Origin: a virus
Taxonomy: Duplodnaviria; Caudoviricetes
Strand: one strand, 5' to 3'
Length of the DNA: 55,330 bases
Virus record (IMG/VR): IMGVR_UViG_3300003267_000247
Location: 1 to 55,330 of that record
Below, in pieces: positions 28,272 through 53,473 of this stretch; within the stretch, counting starts at the first letter, position 1; each line of letters begins with the position of its first letter. Below the pieces are notes generated by a model. The model was not told where the DNA came from. It searched no databases and saw only the letters and a program-made list of their open reading frames with translations. The position numbers and the translations under genes were made by a program.

Positions 28272-28682
28272 TTATCTGCCTCTTTTTAGTTTTTTAAGTG
28301 TAGCGATGTATTGATTAATCAGCGTACGATCAAGCTGTTGATAGTTTGGAATCGTATAAAATGAAAGTGCTGTATCAATTTGATCTCTTTTGACAATGGT
28401 ATACGGTTGTATCCATTGTAGAAATCTATATGCTATGTCATTATGTGCTTTCCAAGAAAAGGTATCTACCCATAAAACATTTTTTGCCGATGCTTTATTA
28501 TTTTCTATACGCCCGCCAAACTTATTTAACGGGTACATTAATGCGGGTTGAAACACACTTATTAGTTTTATGACCAATGTTGGCTGTTTTTGCACATTAT
28601 ATACAATAGCAACGCTACCTTCGCCATCAAAGAGTCCAGCATAATATACTGGCGCGAGTATTGCGTTATTCAAAAAGTCCAT
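28272..28682 (-). CDS. free-standing single-motif LAGLIDADG endonuclease (start ATG 28682)
   Basis: YYAGLFDGEGSV motif, IQPYTIVKRDQ; GAGG SD; neighbours intact. Confidence 0.88.
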   Translation of the reverse strand: MDFLNNAILAPVYYAGLFDGEGSVAIVYNVQKQPTLVIKLISVFQPALMYPLNKFGGRIENNKASAKNVLWVDTFSWKAHNDIAYRFLQWIQPYTIVKRDQIDTALSFYTIPNYQQLDRTLINQYIATLKKLKRGR

Positions 28683-42451: not shown

Positions 42452-43108
42452 ATGAAAAATACTAGTAAAGAGTTTAAAGAGGTATTTGAGCAATATCGAT
42501 TAAAGTATGAAGTAGATAATTTGCAACAACCAAATGATCTTGCAAACCTTGAAACAATGATTCGTAATCAAATTCTTGTAGGAAAGCTACAAAATAGATT
42601 AGATGAGCTTGTTGATACTGATGAACTAGATCCTGTTGAAATTAAAAAAATTCTCGACAGTCTTGTTGCATTATCGCAAACAAATATTCAATATGAGCGC
42701 ACGCTAGCAATTGATCGAAAGACTCGTAAAGCGCAGCAAGAAGAGTCTGTTGTTGATTATATCACAAAGCTAAAGCAGCTCGCGAAAGAGTTTGTTGATA
42801 ACGATCGTCGTATTCTGAAAGTACATTGTAAAAACTGTAATATCATGGTTGGTCGTATATCTGGCGTCTATGATACAACAGAGTATTTTGCTAGTTTTCA
42901 GTGCCCACAGTGTAAAAAGCAGATTGTTGTGACAAGAAAAGAGCGAGATATCTTTTTTGATGTAAAGGATGCTGATTGGCGACGTAAATACCCAATGGAA
43001 GTTATACAACCAAAACGTATGCGTAGAAAAGATGCACCTGATTTAGATGCTGGCAGTGCAGAGCTTATTATTGGTGATGATGATTTAGGGGTAGAGTATG
43101 GCGATTGA
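42452..43108 (+). CDS. putative terminase small subunit with Zn ribbon
   Basis: Overlaps large terminase start; helical N-terminus, CKNC..CPQC. Confidence 0.55.
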   Translation: MKNTSKEFKEVFEQYRLKYEVDNLQQPNDLANLETMIRNQILVGKLQNRLDELVDTDELDPVEIKKILDSLVALSQTNIQYERTLAIDRKTRKAQQEESVVDYITKLKQLAKEFVDNDRRILKVHCKNCNIMVGRISGVYDTTEYFASFQCPQCKKQIVVTRKERDIFFDVKDADWRRKYPMEVIQPKRMRRKDAPDLDAGSAELIIGDDDLGVEYGD

Positions 43109-45686
43109 AAAGAAGCTAGATGATGAAGATTTGGCACTGTTAGAAATCATTGAAGATCCTATCTGGTTGGGGGAGTTTTTGCGATCAACAGGGGAAGGCG
43201 AAACAGATAAAAGCATGCATTCGCCTGAACCGTGGAAATATCGTGATTATCAAAAACAGTTTCTTACCGATCAATCTGAGTTTATTTTATGTACTGGCGG
43301 TAGAGCAATTGGAAAGTGTCAACCAGGCAGTGCAAAGATACTTACTGATAAAGGTTATCAATCGATTAGTAGCTTATTGCGCGAAGAAACATTTATTGTA
43401 TACACACTTACACCTGATATGACTCTTGAACAACGCAGGGCATTGATTAGTTTTGATAAAGAAGCGCCGGTTTATCGTATTACAACAGAATCATCGTATG
43501 TTGTAGAAGCTACAATGAATCATCCATTTCTCACACCAACTGGTTACACTCCGCTAGAAAATATCAAAGTAGGTGATTATGTTGCAGTAACTACACATAT
43601 ACCACACGAAACACACAGATCAGCATTACAGTGGCATGAGTTGCGCATTATAGGATACTTATTTCTTTTGACCGAGTTTAGAGCGGAATATGAGATAATA
43701 CCGCGTTATAATGCAATGGGTAAAGAGTTAGAACATATTGCAGATAAGTTGTATGTACGCTGGTACAAAGATCGTAAAACAGGGGCATATCGTTTTGTGC
43801 ATCGCCCTGGCCCTTTTCGTCATCCGCTAAACGCACTACTTGATCAAGTTACGCTTTTTAATGCACTCAAAGTAAATGGCGGTATTAGAAAAGTGCCAAC
43901 CCTGATAAAAAATGAGCGTTTACAAAATGTGCAGATCTTTTTAGAAGCAGTATTTGCACAGTTTGGTGAACTATCTCAACATAAAATCGCCCTTGATCTT
44001 AACTGGCCGAAACTCGTTGAAGATATGCGAGAGCTTTTACTACGGTTTGGTATTGAAACACGTATTACAAATAAAGGGAACGGGTATCGACTAGAGACAT
44101 TAGATGATCGTGCTGCGTATCGATTTTGGCGCACCTTTGCATTGCCTGGTGTTGGAGTTGGTAAGTTACGGCTTCCACCTGCTAGTGAAGATGCAACGGA
44201 GTTTATGCGCTACGATCGCGTTGTTTCAATCGAACAAGTTGCAAGTGGCGCGGCAACGTATGCGGTATACGTGTACGACACAAATAACTATATTAGTGAT
44301 CACGTGTTTGTACATAATACTGTTATACTCGAAGACAAAATTATTTACGAAGTTGTGAATAGAGATATAACGTTCCCGATAACACCTGAATCTGTACTTG
44401 TTACACCAAACCAAGCACAAATGACACCACTACTTACGAAAATCATTCTTCGTTTTACCACAAGCAGATTGCTACGCGACTATTTGAATAATAACATTAA
44501 TCGTACTGACGGTACCATGAAGTTTTTCATGAAACAACCTGGCAAGCCAATGATTTTCAACTTTCGTATTGCCGGTAGTCGTGGGGAAAATAATATGGTT
44601 GGTTTGCATATACCACGAATACGTGGTGACGAGATGCAACTATTCACAATGAGTGCATTTACACAGCTATCGCACACTTATAACAGTTGGGAACCACAAA
44701 GACAACAACTATATGCAGGTGTACCAAACGGTTTACGTACAAGCGTATTATACAATCTTGATCTTGATCCACTATACAAAAAGTATCACATTCCTGCACA
44801 TATGAATCCTGTGTATTCATTTGAACGCGATCAACAAAACTTGCGCGATTATGGCGGTGAAGCAGATGATCGATACCAACAGCTAGTACTAGGAAGACAT
44901 GGACAAGCAGCCTTTCAAGTTATCCCGCGCGAGTCAATGACAGTAGAAAACTATCCTTTCTATTCGTATCAGTTTACAAGCATACAGAGTAAAAAAGGAC
45001 AACGTTTTGAAGATCATTTACAGCGTCCAAATCTACCGTCAGAAGTAGACATGTCTGTTATTGCAATCGATCCTGGCTTTGTTGATGCGGCTATTATGCA
45101 AGTTATGGGGCGAACAAAAAACGGGATATGGCGTACATACGTACGTTATCGATTAAAGCGTATTGATTTTAGCCAACAGCAAGATATTATCCATTGGCTT
45201 GCACAACACTACAAGTCTCCCATTATTGCAATAGATATTGGTGCCGGGGGTAATGGTAGTGCCATTATGCACAATCTTATGTATAACCCTACATACGCAG
45301 GGCAACAATATGACAAACGTATGGTTGGTGTACAGTTCTCAGAGTTGGTACTTTCTGGATACGATGATCAAGGGGAAGAACTTTTTCAAGATTCTAAAGG
45401 ATACGCAACAAACGAACTAGCACAAACCATTCAAGACGGAAGATTGATTTTTAGTGAAATCGATCATGAAGCAATGAGCGAGTTAGAACGTGTTGCAAAA
45501 TTACGTACCGCATCAGGGAGAGACAGATACTATGTACTTAGTTCTCGCGGTGCCGGTGCGGATGATGAAGATCATATTTACGCTACGTACGTTGTATGGG
45601 TACTTGCAACACGTATGGGTGTTGTTAATCCAACATTACGAAGACTAGGTAAGCCAAGGGGCTTACATACAAAAATAAAAAACTAA
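43098..45686 (+). CDS. terL: terminase large subunit containing an intein (528 aa after splicing)
   Basis: YRDYQ, Walker A GGRAIGK|T split by intein, Walker B GDEMQ, nuclease AIDPG, IDIGAGG, DEDHI. Confidence 0.92.
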   Translation: MAIEKKLDDEDLALLEIIEDPIWLGEFLRSTGEGETDKSMHSPEPWKYRDYQKQFLTDQSEFILCTGGRAIGKCQPGSAKILTDKGYQSISSLLREETFIVYTLTPDMTLEQRRALISFDKEAPVYRITTESSYVVEATMNHPFLTPTGYTPLENIKVGDYVAVTTHIPHETHRSALQWHELRIIGYLFLLTEFRAEYEIIPRYNAMGKELEHIADKLYVRWYKDRKTGAYRFVHRPGPFRHPLNALLDQVTLFNALKVNGGIRKVPTLIKNERLQNVQIFLEAVFAQFGELSQHKIALDLNWPKLVEDMRELLLRFGIETRITNKGNGYRLETLDDRAAYRFWRTFALPGVGVGKLRLPPASEDATEFMRYDRVVSIEQVASGAATYAVYVYDTNNYISDHVFVHNTVILEDKIIYEVVNRDITFPITPESVLVTPNQAQMTPLLTKIILRFTTSRLLRDYLNNNINRTDGTMKFFMKQPGKPMIFNFRIAGSRGENNMVGLHIPRIRGDEMQLFTMSAFTQLSHTYNSWEPQRQQLYAGVPNGLRTSVLYNLDLDPLYKKYHIPAHMNPVYSFERDQQNLRDYGGEADDRYQQLVLGRHGQAAFQVIPRESMTVENYPFYSYQFTSIQSKKGQRFEDHLQRPNLPSEVDMSVIAIDPGFVDAAIMQVMGRTKNGIWRTYVRYRLKRIDFSQQQDIIHWLAQHYKSPIIAIDIGAGGNGSAIMHNLMYNPTYAGQQYDKRMVGVQFSELVLSGYDDQGEELFQDSKGYATNELAQTIQDGRLIFSEIDHEAMSELERVAKLRTASGRDRYYVLSSRGAGADDEDHIYATYVVWVLATRMGVVNPTLRRLGKPRGLHTKIKN
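43317..44318 (+). mobile_element. intein (334 aa) with degenerate LAGLIDADG domain
   Basis: N-terminal CQPGSAKILT, block B TMNHPFLT, block F/G TYAVYVYDTNNYISDHVFVHN followed by Thr. Confidence 0.93.
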
Positions 45687-49694: not shown

Positions 49695-49723
49695 TTGACA
49701 ACCGCTCTTAGGCATGATATACT
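49695..49723 (+). promoter_or_regulatory. sigma70-type promoter TTGACA-17-TATACT with extended -10 TG
   Basis: Heads the ncRNA island. Confidence 0.8.
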
Positions 49724-49949
49724 TCGCTCACATCAGTAAATGACTGATGGACAGATACAACCAAACGGAGGAAACATGCCTATGTGTGACTATCGGTAGC
49801 AGCTTTTGAAAAGGGGATTGCCTATTGATTAGTACACGGTTGTAGCTCACGTGATATATGGTAGACAGAATAACGAAAGTGCGGTAGCCATCCTGTGCTG
49901 TCTTAACTACGTTCATGGACATAGGAACGATGCCATATATCACATCTGT

Positions 49950-50023
49950 AGCAGGGGATTCGGCAATCACCAGAGTCTCATAAGCTCAGGCATAAAAGGG
50001 TTCAACTCCCTTCCCTGCCACCA
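49950..50023 (+). tRNA. tRNA-Met(CAT)-like with aberrant D arm
   Basis: Acceptor AGCAGGG/CCCUGCC (1:72 mismatch) + ACCA, loop CUCAUAA, T arm AAGGG-UUCAACU-CCCUU; D region only GAUU-CGGC-AAUC. Confidence 0.7.
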
Positions 50024-50066
50024 TAGAACAGTTTACCGGTTAAGATACTGAAACCGTGGTTTTTAT

Positions 50067-50140
50067 ACTTGCATAGTTGAATGGCAAAACAGTTGCTTGG
50101 TAAGTAACAAACATAGGTTCGATTCCTATTGCAAGTGCCA
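50067..50140 (+). tRNA. tRNA-Thr(GGT)
   Basis: ACUUGCA/UGCAAGU acceptor, GUUGC-UUGGUAA-GUAAC, AUAGG-UUCGAUU-CCUAU, encoded CCA. Confidence 0.9.
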
Positions 50141-50494: not shown

Positions 50495-50576
50495 GTAGAA
50501 ATCTTTCTAAAAGCGCATCAAGGGCTGATCCTACATTGTAGGCTATATGCGTAAAAAGCCCTTGAAAGGTAATGAT

Positions 50577-50786
50577 ATGTCTTTTTGGCAAGTATACATC
50601 GGTATTGTTGTTGTTACTACAATCATTGATTTATTCTATACGCTTGCATCAACAGGCCCAAAGTATACGGATTATCATAATGCAACAATGTGGCGGCGCT
50701 TTTGGGTAGCTATGTTTTTGCGCCCTATTGTTGTTTTTATTGTTGCTGTGATAGTTAAAGGCATTTATCTTGTGGTTAGTGCATAA
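50577..50786 (+). CDS. small two-TM membrane protein (start ATG 50577)
   Basis: GAAAGGT SD; two hydrophobic segments. Confidence 0.65.
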   Translation: MSFWQVYIGIVVVTTIIDLFYTLASTGPKYTDYHNATMWRRFWVAMFLRPIVVFIVAVIVKGIYLVVSA

Positions 50787-50787
50787 T

Positions 50788-50870
50788 GGGGTATAAATGG
50801 CGTCGATTGTGTCTTAAAGCCCTATAAGGGACGATGCAAGACTAGAGTTCGATTCTCTAATACTCCACCA
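50788..50870 (+). ncRNA. tmRNA tRNA-like-domain-only RNA (mini-tmRNA, 83 nt)
   Basis: GGGGUAU/AUACUCC acceptor with G3.U70 + ACCA; stemless D loop AAAUGGCGUCGA; helix UUGUGUC/GAUGCAA; GAC linker; T arm UAGAG-UUCGAUU-CUCUA. Confidence 0.8.
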
Positions 50871-50976
50871 TAAAGCTCTGTAATGCTGTATATCGACATA
50901 AGCGAATCCTGTATACGCGTAAATGAAGTAGTGTGTACAGGTAGGCGAAAACGTTATACAGCATTACAGAGCTTTA
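50871..50976 (+). ncRNA. long hairpin element closed by a 22-bp perfect inverted repeat
   Basis: 50871-50892 pairs with 50955-50976; inner 11-bp stem 50908-50918/50931-50941 with two G.U pairs. Confidence 0.55.
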
Positions 50977-51009: not shown

Positions 51010-51249
51010 ATGATTATAATGAAGCAGTTGCTTTATATGCCGATGCCAGCATTTAAACAGTACCTTGATATGTTAAGCGATCGAGAACGCATTGCATTAC
51101 AAATCATAATAGACGAAATTGAGCGGCGAATGGAACTAGAGGGCCGCAGAATCATGAACGATGAAGAGGCTAACTTGGTTGTACCAGATGTACCACAGTC
51201 TGCATACGAACTTTTAGGCTTGCAGACGCCAAACGTTTTAGGTACTTGA
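51010..51249 (+). CDS. hypothetical protein
   Basis: 79 aa, AAGGA SD. Confidence 0.65.
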   Translation: MIIMKQLLYMPMPAFKQYLDMLSDRERIALQIIIDEIERRMELEGRRIMNDEEANLVVPDVPQSAYELLGLQTPNVLGT

Positions 51250-51274
51250 CAGCGGCAAAAAGTCATGGTATAAT
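51246..51274 (+). promoter_or_regulatory. perfect sigma70 promoter TTGACA-17-TATAAT with extended -10 TG
   Basis: Exact consensus; heads the pseudoknot / tRNA / CAGCA-motif / DUF2828 unit. Confidence 0.88.
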
Positions 51275-51849: not shown

Positions 51850-51916
51850 AAGATGGTAACAGCAAACAACTTTATCAGTTATTTTTGCAAAATAAACACG
51901 ATGAAATCCCATCTTG
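51850..51916 (+). ncRNA. CAGCA stem-loop motif, copy 2
   Basis: AAGAUGG/CCAUCUU stem, UAACAGCAAAC, inner UUAUU-UUUGCAA-AAUAA hairpin. Confidence 0.65.
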
Positions 51917-51919
51917 TTA

Positions 51920-51953
51920 AAGATTATTCAGCAGTATTATACATATAATCTTG
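51920..51953 (+). ncRNA. CAGCA stem-loop motif, copy 3 (minimal), abutting the DUF2828 SD
   Basis: AAGAUUAU/AUAAUCUU stem, UCAGCAG loop, then AAAGGA SD and ATG 51968. Confidence 0.6.
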
Positions 51954-51967
51954 AAAGGAAACTTCAC

Positions 51968-53473
51968 ATGAACAAACTCCTAGAAGCATTGCAAGTTGAT
52001 TTTAACTATACTCGTACCGAAAACGGCGCATTGACGTATCGTAGCACGCTAGATGCGGTGCTTGATTTTTATTACCACGCACCAGCTAAACGCGGGCAAA
52101 ACCAAGAGATTATTGATCTTTTTATGCGTGCGTTTGCAGAAGATCCTGTACTCGCACTGAAAGCTTTATTCTACTTGCGTGATGTGCGTAATGGGCAAGG
52201 TGAACGTGATTCATTCCGCGCCGTATTTACATGGCTTGCACAGAACTATACAAATGTATTTAATGCGCTTGTACCGCTTGTACCAGAGTACGGACGTTGG
52301 GATGACTTAACTGATTTATTCGTTGATCAGCCAACCGTTGCACAGTTTGTACGCGCTACACTGTTTAATGATTTTGATGCGTATCGCAAAGATGGTAACA
52401 TTTCTTTGCTTGCAAAATGGATGCCATCAGTAAACGCAGGCAAAGCAGCAAAGAAAATTGGCCGCAAATGGGCTAAAGCACTTGGTTTAACTGAACCACA
52501 GTACCGCCATTTGCTATCAACTCTACGTGGTAAGTTAAATCTTGTTGAAACAGCAATGACAAGTCAGCAGTGGAATGAGATCGAGTACGCACATGTACCA
52601 TCTCGCGCAGCGTTGCTGTATCGCAAGGCATTTAGCAAGCATGATGCTGATCGTTACGTAGCATACCTTGAAGCTGTAAAAGCAGGTAAAACAAAGATCA
52701 ATGCCGGTACACTGTATCCATACGATCTTGTACGTAACTATTCAACATATTTTATTGGTTACGATAGAAGCAGCAGAAAGATCGATGAAACGGTAGAAGC
52801 ACAATGGAAAGCATTACCTGATTATCTGGCAGGTTCAGAAGAAAACATTCTTGTGGCAGCCGATGTATCAGGATCAATGTTTACGGGCGCATCTATGCAA
52901 CCAATTGATGTAAGTGTCTCGCTTGCTATTTACGCAGCGCAGCGTAATCATGGTGCGTTCAAAAACGTATTCATGACATTTACAGATAAACCAAAATTGG
53001 TTTCTTTGTCAAATAACGGCACGTTACTACATCATGTTATGGAAGTTTTTCGAGATGTAGGATATAACACAGATATTCAGAGAATGTTTGATGTATTGCT
53101 TTCAACCGCAGTATTGCGTCATGTACCTGTAGAAGATATGCCAACAAAGTTCTTTGTTATTTCCGATATGGAGTTTGATAGTGGTAATGTTGGCGGCAAT
53201 CGCACAAATTTTGAGTTAATCAAAGCAAAGTACGCTCGCGCAGGATATCCAATGCCTACGCTTGTATTTTGGAATGTTGCAAGCCGTGGTAAGCAAACGC
53301 CGGTAACAAAAGATGAGCGTGGTGTATATCTGGTATCAGGGGCATCTCCAAGCATCTTTACCGCAGCATTGAATACCAAAGCAGTAACACCAACTGATTT
53401 GATGAAAGATGTGCTAAATAGTAATCGTTACGCAGCAATCGAGGAAGCCTTGATTACTACAGGTATTGTATAA
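51968..53473 (+). CDS. DUF2828-family protein (TROVE/Ro60-like helical domain + vWA/MIDAS domain), 501 aa
   Basis: TENGA, FYLRDVRNGQGER, YGRWDDL, AKWMPS, VPSRA, TLYPYDLV, DVSGSM (DxSxS), SDMEFD, FWNV. Confidence 0.88.
   Translation: MNKLLEALQVDFNYTRTENGALTYRSTLDAVLDFYYHAPAKRGQNQEIIDLFMRAFAEDPVLALKALFYLRDVRNGQGERDSFRAVFTWLAQNYTNVFNALVPLVPEYGRWDDLTDLFVDQPTVAQFVRATLFNDFDAYRKDGNISLLAKWMPSVNAGKAAKKIGRKWAKALGLTEPQYRHLLSTLRGKLNLVETAMTSQQWNEIEYAHVPSRAALLYRKAFSKHDADRYVAYLEAVKAGKTKINAGTLYPYDLVRNYSTYFIGYDRSSRKIDETVEAQWKALPDYLAGSEENILVAADVSGSMFTGASMQPIDVSVSLAIYAAQRNHGAFKNVFMTFTDKPKLVSLSNNGTLLHHVMEVFRDVGYNTDIQRMFDVLLSTAVLRHVPVEDMPTKFFVISDMEFDSGNVGGNRTNFELIKAKYARAGYPMPTLVFWNVASRGKQTPVTKDERGVYLVSGASPSIFTAALNTKAVTPTDLMKDVLNSNRYAAIEEALITTGIV

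What the first reader, a model, noticed from the sequence alone, without database searches (positions are those of the whole stretch)
50788..50870. 83-nt mini-tmRNA: complete tRNA-like domain with no mRNA-like domain or pseudoknots
Seen: the RNA shows the tmRNA TLD hallmarks: GGGG start, G3.U70, A discriminator + CCA, a stemless D loop ending GG..UCGA, helix 2a, a 3-nt GAC linker and a canonical T arm. Only 19 nt (50814-50832, with a CCCU/AGGG hairpin) join the helix-2 strands, where bacterial tmRNA has roughly 250 nt including the tag ORF. There is no anticodon stem. Known: G3.U70 specifies alanylation, the TLD binds SmpB, and tag-less tmRNAs are known from some mitochondria. Inference: it could be an SmpB decoy that blocks host trans-translation, a tag-free ribosome-rescue or codon-independent Ala donor, or half of a two-part tmRNA.
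Basis: partly seen in the sequence, partly recalled or inferred. Interest (0 to 1): 0.88.

Follow-up and report, generated by a model that had tools for sequence, protein, structure and literature searches.

The report
Tag-less mini-tmRNA gene in a phage
This phage carries an 83-base gene for a stripped-down copy of the bacterial ribosome-rescue RNA (tmRNA) that keeps only the tRNA-like end; one such gene was already known from a mycobacteriophage, but it proves to be common in uncultured phages and probably diverts or blocks the host's rescue system.

Summary
Window 50788-50870 (+) encodes an 83-nt RNA with a 7-bp acceptor stem (G3.U70, A73, CCA), a stemless GG..UCGA D loop, a 7-bp helix 2, a GAC linker and a T arm. 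It has no anticodon arm, tag frame or pseudoknot.

It is one member of a family. Two motif scans recovered 107 other viral contigs (78 distinct sequences, 68-98 nt). Helix 2 and the T stem covary strongly. 13 of 14 relatives tested pass Rfam's tmRNA threshold with the central ~300 model positions skipped.

A model built without the window copy scores it 70.3 bits. True tRNA-Ala genes score at most 34. The window copy itself fails Rfam tmRNA and mt-tmRNA, and scores 21 bits (sub-threshold) as tRNA.

The same model scores the 'TLD only' tmRNA of mycobacteriophage DS6A (reported 2014) at 60 bits. The kind is therefore known and this is a new member. I found no paper describing its breadth in phages.

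G3.U70 is kept in 15 of 15 copies found without constraining it, which argues for selection on alanylation. Most likely it is an Ala-charged, SmpB-dependent competitor of host tmRNA at stalled ribosomes. This is inferred and untested.

The parts
50788..50870 (+). Whole 83-nt tag-less (TLD-only) tmRNA gene
   Evidence: Sequence read. Motif is unique in the window, 0 of 100 shuffles. Family model R1 gives 74.4 bits and leave-out model R2 gives 70.3 bits.
50788..50794 (+). Acceptor stem, 5' strand GGGGUAU (pairs with 50860-50866; G3.U70 is 50790 with 50864)
   Evidence: Acceptor pairs 5-7 covary across the family. G3.U70 is kept in 15 of 15 copies found without constraining it.
50795..50806 (+). 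Stemless D loop AAAUGGCGUCGA (GG..UCGA motif of tmRNA)
   Evidence: GG and UCGA were imposed by the search motif, so their invariance in the family is not independent evidence.
50807..50813 (+). Helix 2, 5' strand UUGUGUC (pairs with 50833-50839)
   Evidence: All 7 of 7 pairs of this helix show changes on both sides across 41 sequences, 92.7% of cells paired. U20-A52 here replaces the commoner C-G.
50814..50832 (+). 19-nt cap of helix 2: A-rich internal loop (UUAAAG / AC) and CCCU-AUA-AGGG hairpin; stands where PK1, the tag frame and PK2-4 lie in full tmRNA
   Evidence: Most family members have the same layout; 4 of 78 have only a 4- or 5-nt loop. No conserved reading frame was seen on inspection.
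50833..50839 (+). Helix 2, 3' strand GAUGCAA
50840..50842 (+). GAC linker before the T arm
   Evidence: G and A are 90-100% conserved in the alignment and were not imposed by the motif.
50843..50859 (+). T arm: UAGAG / UUCGAUU / CUCUA
   Evidence: 4 of 5 T-stem pairs covary; the fifth was imposed by the motif.
50860..50870 (+). Acceptor stem 3' strand AUACUCC, discriminator A (50867), encoded CCA (50868-50870)
49695..49723 (+). Candidate sigma-70-type promoter (11 of 12, TG-extended) from which the RNA could be co-transcribed with tRNA-Thr and two small ORFs; consensus match only
   Evidence: Promoter-like sites are not enriched over shuffles (9 found, 7.5 expected). The next strong site, 51246-51274 (12 of 12), lies downstream of the RNA.

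Best explanation
The gene encodes a tag-less tmRNA: the tRNA-like domain plus a capped helix 2. It is the same kind as the 'TLD only' tmRNA of mycobacteriophage DS6A.

Proposed mechanism, with the status of each step:

1. It is transcribed with the neighbouring tRNA genes and trimmed like a tRNA. This is inferred from its position in the tRNA array and its 7-bp acceptor stem.
2. Host AlaRS charges it with alanine through G3.U70 and A73. This is inferred from conservation.
3. It binds host SmpB through the tmRNA-type D loop, GAC linker and helix 2, and binds EF-Tu. This is inferred. The phage record holds no SmpB gene.
4. The complex enters ribosomes stalled on broken mRNAs in place of host tmRNA and accepts the nascent chain on its alanine. 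This is inferred.
5. There is no resume codon, tag frame or stop codon, so no SsrA degradation tag is added. This is shown by the anatomy. Release must then depend on other factors such as ArfB-type hydrolases, drop-off with peptidyl-tRNA hydrolase, or a further round. This part is speculative.

The net effect would be to divert stalled ribosomes and SmpB from the host tagging pathway during infection. My confidence that it is a TLD-only tmRNA homologue is about 0.9. The confidence field gives the figure for the mechanism.
For: Identity.
- 92 viral contigs match a 26-base architectural motif whose chance expectation is near zero.
- With a relaxed scan the total is 107 other contigs and 78 distinct sequences of 68-98 nt.
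- On a MAFFT alignment that was not fitted to the structure, 97.3% of cells pair, against 46-52% when partners are slid. 14 of 19 pairs show compensatory changes, and the covariation score is 0.796 against 0.08-0.15.
- 13 of 14 members score 50.9-74.5 bits on Rfam tmRNA RF00023 (cut-off 47), with about 304 central model positions skipped.
- Leave-out model R2 scores the window RNA 70.3 bits and DS6A 60.1 bits.
- In the same arrays, true tRNA-Ala genes score 21.9-34.0 bits and other tRNAs at most 28.5 bits.

Charging under selection.
- In the scan that left acceptor positions 1-4 and 69-72 free, 15 of 15 TLD-like copies with a full acceptor stem keep G3.U70, while pair 4:69 varies among G-C, C-G and A-U.
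- DS6A and a copy in a Pseudonocardia genome keep G3.U70 too.
- A G.U pair could become G-C by one transition, yet never has.

Not a tRNA-Ala substitute.
- 6 loci carry a normal tRNA-Ala in the same array.

Phage-specific.
- Only 12 motif hits were found in 596 billion bases of prokaryote genomes, mostly in MAG contigs.
- The four bacterial genomes checked each also have one full-length tmRNA, and the short copies are not copies of it.

Experimental precedent, at second hand.
- Passages in PMC4131195 and PMC11915505 state that a similar TLD-only molecule strongly inhibits endogenous tmRNA in E. coli (Mao et al. 2009, not held here).

No tag.
- Only 19 nt lie between the helix-2 strands, and ARAGORN calls no tmRNA here.
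Against: - Nothing here shows expression, processing, charging or SmpB binding. No RNA run holds the locus.
- The window copy itself gets no match to Rfam tmRNA or mt-tmRNA at E<=10. Its best curated hit is a sub-threshold tRNA match of 21.2 bits.
- It departs from the tmRNA consensus at G7, UUCGAC (here GUCGAU) and GGAC (here AGAC), which could weaken SmpB binding.
- Single-sequence folding disfavours helix 2 and the T arm.
[quoted passage not shown] Ribosome entry is therefore not needed for inhibition, and a pure SmpB sponge would do.
- No rescue-related protein (SmpB, RF-1/ArfB-type) is encoded in this 72%-complete record.
- No protein family accompanies the RNA across lineages; the best is 9 of 78 distinct copies. 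Context therefore gives no functional support.
- GGGG, GG..UCGA, the T loop and CUCCACCA were imposed by the first motif. Their invariance in the 92 contigs is not evidence.
Confidence: 0.5

Rival explanations
1. Pure sponge. The RNA acts only by sequestering host SmpB, and perhaps RNase R or EF-Tu, off the ribosome. This shuts down trans-translation. Charging and ribosome entry are irrelevant.
For: [quoted passage not shown] PMC11915505 repeats that the form inhibits endogenous tmRNA in E. coli. All tmRNA-specific TLD features are retained in the family.
Against: G3.U70 is strictly kept in 15 of 15 unconstrained copies, while neighbouring acceptor pairs vary freely. A pure SmpB sponge would not need this. 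The primary paper could not be read.
Confidence: 0.24
2. Decoy or shield against other factors that recognise tmRNA- or tRNA-shaped RNA. Candidates are defence systems with SmpB-like domains, RNase R and the accessory nucleases of type III CRISPR, and tRNA-targeting nucleases.
For: Only by analogy. CoCoNuT restriction systems carry SmpB-like OB folds predicted to bind tmRNA (PMC11090510, passages). The anti-CRISPR AcrIIIA1 works with tmRNA fragments of about 90 nt that bind RNase R (PMC11662646, passages). The genes often sit among early, replication or recombination genes such as ERF, YqaJ, DnaB-like and SNF2.
Against: No defence or anti-defence gene is linked to the RNA in the loci examined. 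Conservation of the alanine identity pair is not explained.
Confidence: 0.1
3. In this phage lineage the RNA is a ligand of the phage's Ro60-like protein, that is, a Y-RNA-like tRNA mimic. It may act together with the long hairpin that follows it.
For: A Ro60/TROVE-like protein gene at 51914-53473 follows the tRNA/TLD array here and in two related phages, L013 and L080. Bacterial and phage Y RNAs lie near Ro60 genes and mimic tRNA (PMC4201824, PMC12135203; passages). A very stable 104-nt hairpin with a GGCGAA motif starts 1 nt after the CCA.
Against: Only 2 of the 107 other loci hold a homologue of this protein. The hairpin is not a family feature. YrlA-type Y RNAs have a closed 'acceptor' and open ends at the Ro-binding stem, which is the opposite topology. 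No Y-RNA family was hit in Rfam.
Confidence: 0.04
4. Non-functional relic: a decayed tRNA-Ala, a decayed tmRNA, or an attachment-site fragment of host ssrA.
For: By Rfam's curated models, the window copy scores only as a sub-threshold tRNA. Many phages integrate into ssrA and carry its 3' end (general knowledge; also stated in PMC9004378).
Against: All 19 pairs are intact in the window copy. Compensatory changes run through the family. An attP fragment would lack the 5' acceptor strand and D loop. No integrase is present in the record. In DS6A the RNA lies about 10 kb from the integrase.
Confidence: 0.04
5. It is one half of a two-piece (permuted) tmRNA whose coding piece lies elsewhere.
For: Two-piece tmRNAs are common in marine phages (PMC9004378, passages). 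There is a marginal hit to Rfam tmRNA_permuted (12.0-12.7 bits).
Against: Both acceptor strands and a closed helix 2 are in one 83-nt unit. The score is far below the 47-bit cut-off. No other tmRNA part is found in the window.
Confidence: 0.01

Closest known systems
'TLD only' tmRNA of Mycobacterium phage DS6A (tmRNA Website tmID 11587; Hudson, Lau & Williams 2014, PMC4131195; Phage__Mycobacterium.9 in PMC11915505)
   Same: The architecture and length are the same (83 nt): G3.U70 acceptor, stemless D loop, helix 2 capped by an A-rich loop and small hairpin, and a T arm. It is phage-borne. It scores 60.1-61.1 bits on the family models, against 70.3-74.4 bits for the window copy.
   Different: DS6A ends CUA, so its CCA is not fully encoded. 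It is GC-rich (0.69 against 0.45), stands alone between a small ORF and a DNA polymerase III gene, and belongs to a temperate actinophage. The window copy sits in a tRNA array of an unrelated phage from a root metagenome.
Bacterial tmRNA (SsrA), Rfam RF00023
   Same: It has the tRNA-like domain: alanine identity elements, GG..UCGA D loop, GAC linker, T arm and the start of helix 2. 13 of 14 relatives pass the RF00023 cut-off.
   Different: It lacks about 300 nt: all pseudoknots, the resume codon, the tag reading frame and its stop codon. The window copy does not reach any RF00023 score at E<=10.
CDS-less organellar tmRNAs (mitochondrial mt-tmRNA RF02544; two ~65-bp plastid genes of Mallomonadaceae, PMC11915505)
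   Same: These too are natural tmRNAs reduced to the tRNA-like domain, without a tag frame.
   Different: They are a separate lineage. RF02544 gives no match to the window RNA at E<=10. Organelles import a dedicated SmpB, whereas the phage must use the host's.
tRNA-Ala
   Same: It shares the G3.U70, A73, CCA, acceptor stem and T arm.
   Different: It has no D stem and no anticodon arm. The Rfam tRNA model gives 21.2 bits, below the 29-bit cut-off, and covers only the acceptor and T arms. ARAGORN makes no call. Real tRNA-Ala genes coexist with family members in 6 loci and score 21.9-34.0 bits on the family model.
Two-piece (permuted) phage tmRNAs, e.g. Methylophilales phage Melnitz and Stenotrophomonas Menderavirus phages
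   Same: These are phage-encoded tmRNA derivatives placed among tRNA genes.
   Different: They keep a coding piece with a tag frame, and their gene order is permuted. On the family model they match only with the 3' half, at 20-33 bits.
YrlA-type Y RNAs (tRNA-mimicking partners of Ro60)
   Same: These are small non-coding tRNA mimics found in phages near a Ro60 gene. This phage has a Ro60-like gene 1 kb downstream.
   Different: In YrlA the acceptor-like stem is closed and the RNA ends form the Ro-binding helix. Here the acceptor is open with ACCA and G3.U70. There is no Rfam Y-RNA hit.

Membership tests
tmRNA tRNA-like domain (SsrA, RF00023) | 7-bp acceptor stem with G3.U70, discriminator A, 3' CCA | tested here: met
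   Read from the sequence. G3.U70 is kept in 15 of 15 relatives found without constraining it.
tmRNA tRNA-like domain (SsrA, RF00023) | D loop without stem (GG..UCGA), helix 2 leaving in place of the anticodon arm, GAC linker, T arm | tested here: met
   Helix 2 covaries at 7 of 7 pairs and the T stem at 4 of 5.
tmRNA tRNA-like domain (SsrA, RF00023) | Reaches Rfam's gathering score (47 bits) | tested here: not met
   The window copy has no match at E<=10. 13 of 14 relatives do reach it, at 50.9-74.5 bits. Membership of the window copy is therefore transitive, through leave-out model R2 at 70.3 bits.
Full tmRNA (functional trans-translation RNA) | mRNA-like domain: resume codon, tag reading frame, in-frame stop | tested here: not met
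   Only 19 nt lie between the helix-2 strands, mostly a hairpin. ARAGORN calls no tmRNA. No frame is shared across the family, on inspection.
Full tmRNA (functional trans-translation RNA) | Pseudoknots PK1-PK4 | tested here: not met
   There is no room for them: the RNA is 83 nt in all.
Full tmRNA (functional trans-translation RNA) | Alanylation by AlaRS; binding of SmpB and EF-Tu | not testable with these tools
   Only inferred from conserved identity elements.
Phage TLD-only tmRNA (DS6A type) | Matches a covariance model of the family built without it, well above tRNAs | tested here: met
   R2 gives the window 70.3 bits, DS6A 60.1, other members 67.7-84.2, tRNA-Ala 21.9-34.0 and other tRNAs at most 28.5.
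Phage TLD-only tmRNA (DS6A type) | Helix 2 closed by a short cap, total length under about 100 nt, carried by a phage | tested here: met
Phage TLD-only tmRNA (DS6A type) | Inhibits endogenous tmRNA when expressed | not testable with these tools
   Known only at second hand (PMC4131195 and PMC11915505 passages citing Mao et al. 2009, which is not held).
tRNA (RF00005) | Cloverleaf with D arm and anticodon arm; gathering score 29 bits | tested here: not met
   21.2 bits, with the D and anticodon arms replaced by unaligned stretches of 19 and 23 nt. No ARAGORN call.
Mitochondrial tmRNA (RF02544) | Match to the family model (cut-off 65 bits) | tested here: not met
   No match at E<=10.
Permuted two-piece tmRNA (RF04321) | 3' acceptor piece precedes the 5' coding piece; cut-off 47 bits | tested here: not met
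   12.0-12.7 bits. The order of the halves is the standard one.
Y RNA (YrlA type) | Ro-binding helix formed by the RNA ends, closed acceptor-like stem, GNCGAAN0-1G motif | tested here: not met
   The topology is the opposite. No Y-RNA hit appears in Rfam at E<=10. The motif definition is taken from a PMC4201824 passage.

The most novel reading that the evidence does not exclude
Tag-less tmRNAs are a widespread, phage-specific RNA class kept under selection for alanine charging, not an oddity of one mycobacteriophage. They would be a viral way of taking over host ribosome rescue: SmpB-dependent transfer of stalled chains onto a bare Ala-RNA, with no degradation tag or with iterated alanine tails, so that the phage controls the fate of ribosomes and proteins stalled during infection.
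Probability: 0.35. Interest if true: 0.75.

Novelty: new member of a known kind. Interest (0 to 1): 0.55.

Why it matters
A TLD-only tmRNA in a phage has so far been a one-line curiosity (DS6A). This window shows a second, unrelated phage with one. The searches it prompted show at least 107 further viral contigs with diverse sequences (GC 0.42-0.69 in the copies scored), clear covariation and an untouched alanine identity pair, against only 12 hits in 596 billion bases of prokaryote genomes.

This turns an anecdote into a testable class. It raises a sharp question for the trans-translation field: what happens on a ribosome after peptidyl transfer to a tmRNA that has no message? The same question is open for mitochondrial and plastid CDS-less tmRNAs.

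It also matters for annotation. ARAGORN misses these genes or miscalls them as full tmRNAs. The window copy escapes Rfam's tmRNA model. The DS6A copy is unannotated in its GenBank record.

Tried and rejected
- Expression. No RNA holder is listed for the locus, so nothing can be said about expression.
- Cultured phages. blastn of the region found no match. blastn of the 83-nt RNA and of three other members found only short matches to T arm and acceptor, apart from the DS6A records, which matched the DS6A query itself. The unannotated hits that I checked match the family model only with the 3' half, at 20-33 bits. These were Stenotrophomonas phage Bhz51, Tunturiibacter phages Tunturi_4 and Tunturi_5, and Synechococcus phage S-CRM01. 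They look like permuted tmRNAs, not TLD-only genes.
- Conserved protein partner. All-against-all BLAST of ORFs within 5 kb of 108 loci found no family in more than 9 of 78 distinct copies. The recurrent ones are lineage-specific replication or recombination genes.
- Hidden mini tag. I read frames from the GCC of the cap by eye. The window gives Ala-Leu-stop and two relatives reach a stop in helix 2, but most members have no stop and several lack GCC. I rejected this as chance. The conserved 'UAA' after helix 2 is really NAA (U, G, A or C at the first position), so it is not a stop codon.
- Downstream hairpin as a family feature. Rejected: the median folding energy of the 120 nt downstream equals that upstream, -28.1 against -28.6 kcal/mol over 70 loci. 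The hairpins of the window and of L013 share no sequence.
- ARAGORN 'tmRNA' calls in L021 and L064. These are spurious joins of a poor upstream 5' half to the real 3' half ('Tag not identified').
- Sequence search of the Ro60-like protein against PDB chains found nothing. The fold search did.
Mao et al. 2009 is not held. Supplementary tables were not opened. Those of PMC11915505 may list further phage CDS-less tmRNAs, which bears on the claim that the breadth is unreported.
- Literature searches for a described family returned only the DS6A mentions.
Full report
**What is there**

The window is a whole IMG/VR virus record of 55,330 bases, estimated 72% complete. It is a tailed phage. It has a terminase carrying an intein, a portal-like protein at most 26% identical to those of Bacillus phages, a ribonucleotide reductase and an amidase. 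The same DNA is held by four runs of one root-metagenome study.

Positions 50788-50870 (+) read GGGGUAU AAAUGGCGUCGA UUGUGUC UUAAAGCCCUAUAAGGGAC GAUGCAA GAC UAGAG UUCGAUU CUCUA AUACUCC A CCA.

- a 7-bp acceptor stem with G3.U70;
- discriminator A and an encoded CCA;
- a D region with GG..UCGA and no stem;
- a 7-bp helix 2;
- a GAC linker;
- a 5-bp T stem with a UUCGAUU loop;
- only 19 nt (50814-50832, with a CCCU/AGGG hairpin) between the helix-2 strands.

The RNA starts 2 nt after the stop codon of a small ORF (50547-50786). It lies on the same strand as tRNA-Thr, -Pro, -Trp and -Gln genes at 50067, 51383, 51767 and 54824.

Contigs of all four runs cross the site without indel or joint. One run is not flagged as a possible source of the record. 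It differs by two substitutions, both outside the RNA. An assembly deletion of a full tmRNA is therefore excluded for this locus, and the family described below excludes it in general.

**Standard detectors**

- ARAGORN calls nothing here.
- Rfam at gathering thresholds finds only three tRNAs in the window.
- With permissive thresholds the tRNA model gives 21.2 bits (cut-off 29). It aligns only the acceptor and T arms and leaves 19 and 23 nt unaligned where the D and anticodon arms should be. The permuted-tmRNA model gives 12.7 bits, against a cut-off of 47.
- Rfam tmRNA (RF00023) and mitochondrial tmRNA (RF02544) give no match at E<=10.
- Folding the single sequence does not recover the tRNA-like fold. 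The MFE is -23.0 kcal/mol (z = -1.77) and shares only the acceptor stem and the small hairpin with it. The proposed fold evaluates to -19.3 kcal/mol, and its helix 2 and T-stem pairs have probabilities of 2-3%.

Taken alone, the window copy is an orphan that curated models do not place.

**The family**

A motif was written from the architecture: GGGG N7 GG NN TCGA N25-55 GTTCGANTC N7 CTCCACCA, 26 specified bases. It matches once in the window and in 0 of 100 shuffles. It matched 92 other viral contigs, giving 65 distinct sequences of 68-98 nt including the window's.

A second scan left acceptor positions 1-4 and 69-72 and the D-loop length free. Of these 100:

- 16 have a fully paired 7-bp acceptor stem;
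- 15 of the 16 have the TLD-only architecture;
- the sixteenth is a tRNA-Tyr-like gene;
- the other 84 are ordinary tRNAs, tandem-tRNA junctions or chance matches.

In all there are 108 loci including the window, with 78 distinct sequences. The nearest relative is 80% identical to the window RNA and the median is 66%.

**Is the structure real?**

The test used a MAFFT alignment of 41 distinct sequences that was not fitted to any structure.

| Measure | Proposed pairs | Partners slid 1-3 columns | Shuffles |
|---|---|---|---|
| Cells paired | 97.3% | 46-52% | 66.7% |
| Covariation score | 0.796 | 0.08-0.15 | 0.175 |

- 14 of the 19 pairs show changes on both sides.
- Helix 2 covaries at all 7 pairs. 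The first pair is C-G in 33 sequences and U-A in 7, including the window.
- The T stem covaries at 4 of 5 pairs.
- The acceptor stem covaries at pairs 5-7.

Some of this was imposed by the selection. Acceptor pairs 1-4, the last T-stem pair, GG..UCGA, the T loop and CUCCACCA were fixed by the motif, and full acceptor pairing was a selection criterion. The independent evidence is helix 2, four T-stem pairs and the identities at acceptor pairs 5-7.

**Is it tmRNA or tRNA?**

Fourteen family members were scanned against all of Rfam.

- 13 reach the curated tmRNA threshold (50.9-74.5 bits against a cut-off of 47). Both ends align to the model and about 304 central positions are skipped. The fourteenth scores 38.2 bits.
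- One of the 13 is L038, which belongs to the window's own subgroup (GGCGUCGAU.., ..AAGA).

I then built a covariance model from 34 members, leaving out the window and its whole subgroup. Its scores are in the table.

| Sequence | R2 score (bits) |
|---|---|
| Window RNA | 70.3 |
| Left-out subgroup | 67.7-79.2 |
| Other members | 74.7-84.2 |
| DS6A copy | 60.1 |
| True tRNA-Ala genes in the same phage arrays | 21.9-34.0 |
| All other tRNAs | at most 28.5 |

The window RNA therefore belongs to a family of tmRNA homologues that lack the whole centre. It reaches that family through transitive homology, not through the Rfam model directly.

Six loci carry a normal tRNA-Ala beside the short gene, so it is not a stand-in for tRNA-Ala.

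**Anatomy of the cap**

- In most members helix 2 (5-10 bp) is followed by an A-rich asymmetric internal loop and a 2-4-bp hairpin.
- Four members have only a 4- or 5-nt loop, giving 68-71 nt in all.
- The first position of the conserved 'UAA' is U, G, A or C, so it is not a stop codon.
- No reading frame is shared across members.

There is no mRNA-like domain in any member.

**Already known**

Passages read in Hudson, Lau & Williams 2014 list 'Mycobacterium phage DS6A (TLD only)'. [quoted passage not shown]

The 2025 tmRNA database paper repeats this and names the other CDS-less forms: mitochondrial tmRNAs and two plastid genes (PMC11915505).

My family models find the DS6A gene at 28478-28560 of JN698994, with 61.1 bits on R1 and 60.1 bits on R2. 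It is 83 nt, has the same architecture and ends CUA. It lies between gp33 and a DNA polymerase III gene and is not annotated in the record.

The kind is therefore known. Six full-text searches found no description of a family beyond DS6A. I could not read Mao et al. 2009 or any supplementary table.

**Distribution and context**

- The motif, with a variable D loop, hits only 12 places in 596 billion bases of prokaryote genomes, mostly MAG contigs.
- Four of those genomes were searched with RF00023. Each also has one full-length tmRNA (130-198 bits). Short copies score 56.8-64.1 bits in three of them, and one genome has two. In the fourth the short copy scores 25.9 bits and its acceptor stem does not pair well.
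- The short copies are not copies of the resident tRNA-like domain.
- Of 93 loci (window included), 32 have a tRNA gene within 1 kb, and the nearby ones are on the same strand. In 12 loci a tRNA gene lies within 6 nt.
- No protein family accompanies the RNA across lineages; the best is 9 of 78 distinct copies. The recurrent neighbours are ERF, YqaJ-type nuclease, DnaB-like and SNF2 helicases.
- The window record encodes no SmpB, no RF-1-domain protein and no tyrosine integrase.

**How it most likely works**

Three things are shown. A conserved tRNA-like fold carries tmRNA-specific features, no message is present, and the genes are phage-borne.

The strongest functional clue is G3.U70, the alanine identity pair (established knowledge). 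All 15 copies found without constraining it keep it, while the next pair varies among G-C, C-G and A-U and pairs 5-7 vary freely. DS6A and a Pseudonocardia copy keep it as well. One transition would turn this wobble into a stronger G-C pair. Its persistence argues that charging with alanine is selected.

A pure SmpB sponge would not need charging, and the published inhibition reportedly did not need it either. I therefore favour the following model at 0.5. The RNA is processed like a tRNA and charged by host AlaRS. It is then bound by host SmpB and EF-Tu and delivered to stalled ribosomes in competition with host tmRNA. The nascent chain would be transferred to its alanine, but no tag can follow. 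Release would depend on other factors. All of these steps are inferred.

The rivals are:

- pure sponge (0.24);
- a decoy for other tmRNA- or tRNA-recognising factors (0.10). This rests only on analogy with SmpB-like domains in CoCoNuT systems and with tmRNA fragments used by AcrIIIA1;
- a ligand of the phage's Ro60-like protein (0.04);
- a non-functional relic (0.04);
- half of a two-piece tmRNA (0.01).

**Points against my reading, in full**

- There are no expression data.
- The window copy fails the curated tmRNA models and deviates from the consensus at G7, UUCGAC and GGAC.
- Thermodynamics of the single sequence favours another fold.
- Gene context gives no support for any rescue function.
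- Part of the apparent conservation was imposed by my own motifs.
- The relaxed scan was truncated, so '15 of 15' is a sample, not a census.

**Verdict**

This is a real, well-formed gene and a correct reading by the first stage. It is a new member of a known kind, and the kind appears to be far more widespread in phages than the literature I could search reports. I score interest at 0.55: moderate to high for specialists in trans-translation and phage RNA biology, but not a new category.

Noticed in passing
window 50871-50976 (+): A very stable 104-nt hairpin starts 1 nt after the CCA end. It has a 22-25-bp near-perfect lower stem, internal loops and an 11-bp upper stem (-55.5 kcal/mol, z = -10.5, 0 of 200 shuffles as good). 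Its arms occur nowhere else in the window. It contains GGCGAA, a partial match to the GNCGAAN0-1G Ro60-binding motif quoted in PMC4201824. It could be a Y-RNA-like partner of the Ro60-like gene 940 nt downstream, an RNase III processing site or a terminator-like element. The related phage L013 has a weaker hairpin (2005-2108, z = -4.3) just after its tRNA-Met, with no sequence similarity. The hairpin is not a general feature of the family.
   Followed up: partly
window 51914-53473 (+): A 519-aa protein with Pfam DUF2828 and DUF7788, matching PHROG 850 'RNA-binding protein' (E 6e-142). A modest model (pLDDT 66) has as its 12 best PDB matches only Ro60/TROVE proteins, including the Ro60 of Thermus phage phiLo (E 2.5e-7 to 2.3e-4, TM 0.32-0.48). 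The gene directly follows the tRNA/TLD array here and in the related phages L013 (45% identity) and L080 (38%). It occurs in none of the other loci.
   Followed up: partly
window 49951-50023 (+): A weak tRNA-like element that ARAGORN missed. It has a 6-bp acceptor-like stem, a D arm, an anticodon-like loop CUCAUAA (CAU) and a T arm GGGUUCAACUCCC. Rfam gives tRNA-Sec 17.4 bits and the family models give 16.6-16.9 bits. It overlaps the mechanical ORF 49851-50051. L013 has a normal tRNA-Met at the corresponding place.
   Followed up: partly
window 43098-45686 (+): The large-terminase gene appears to be interrupted by an intein: an Intein_splicing domain at residues 81-407 with a LAGLIDADG-like segment, and the terminase nuclease domain at 656-787.
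   Followed up: no
L021 5905-6228 (-) and L064 11650-11973 (-): ARAGORN reports a 324-nt 'tmRNA' with the tag AWDYNPMWVQCSA ('Tag not identified'). It does this by joining a poor upstream 5' half to the 3' half of the real 82-nt TLD-only gene. This is an annotation trap for the family.
   Followed up: yes
L208 (Tunturiibacter phage Tunturi_4, PP885687, record 43879-43911): An unannotated tmRNA 3' half (T arm, acceptor strand and CCA) lies about 35 nt downstream of a gene annotated 'RF-1 domain peptide chain release factor' (gp53, an ArfB-like size). This is a possible phage ribosome-rescue module. The RNA matches the family model only with its 3' half, so it is probably a permuted tmRNA.
   Followed up: partly
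L209 28478-28560 (Mycobacterium phage DS6A, JN698994): The published TLD-only tmRNA is not annotated in the GenBank or RefSeq records. It ends CUA instead of CCA. The same phage encodes an RtcB-like RNA ligase (gp76).
   Followed up: partly
G001 (Pseudonocardia sp. genome): L216 and L219: One bacterial genome carries two different TLD-only copies (59.9 and 58.8 bits on RF00023) besides its full-length tmRNA (132 bits). One copy has C4-G69 and no encoded CCA. The host tmRNAs of the two actinobacterial genomes do not encode CCA, whereas three of their four short copies do.
   Followed up: partly
L045 1859-1932 (-) and L072 1365-1438 (+): ARAGORN labels a tRNA in these phage arrays 'tRNA-Pyl', which would be a CUA-anticodon, amber-suppressor-like tRNA, near the TLD-only gene.
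   Followed up: no
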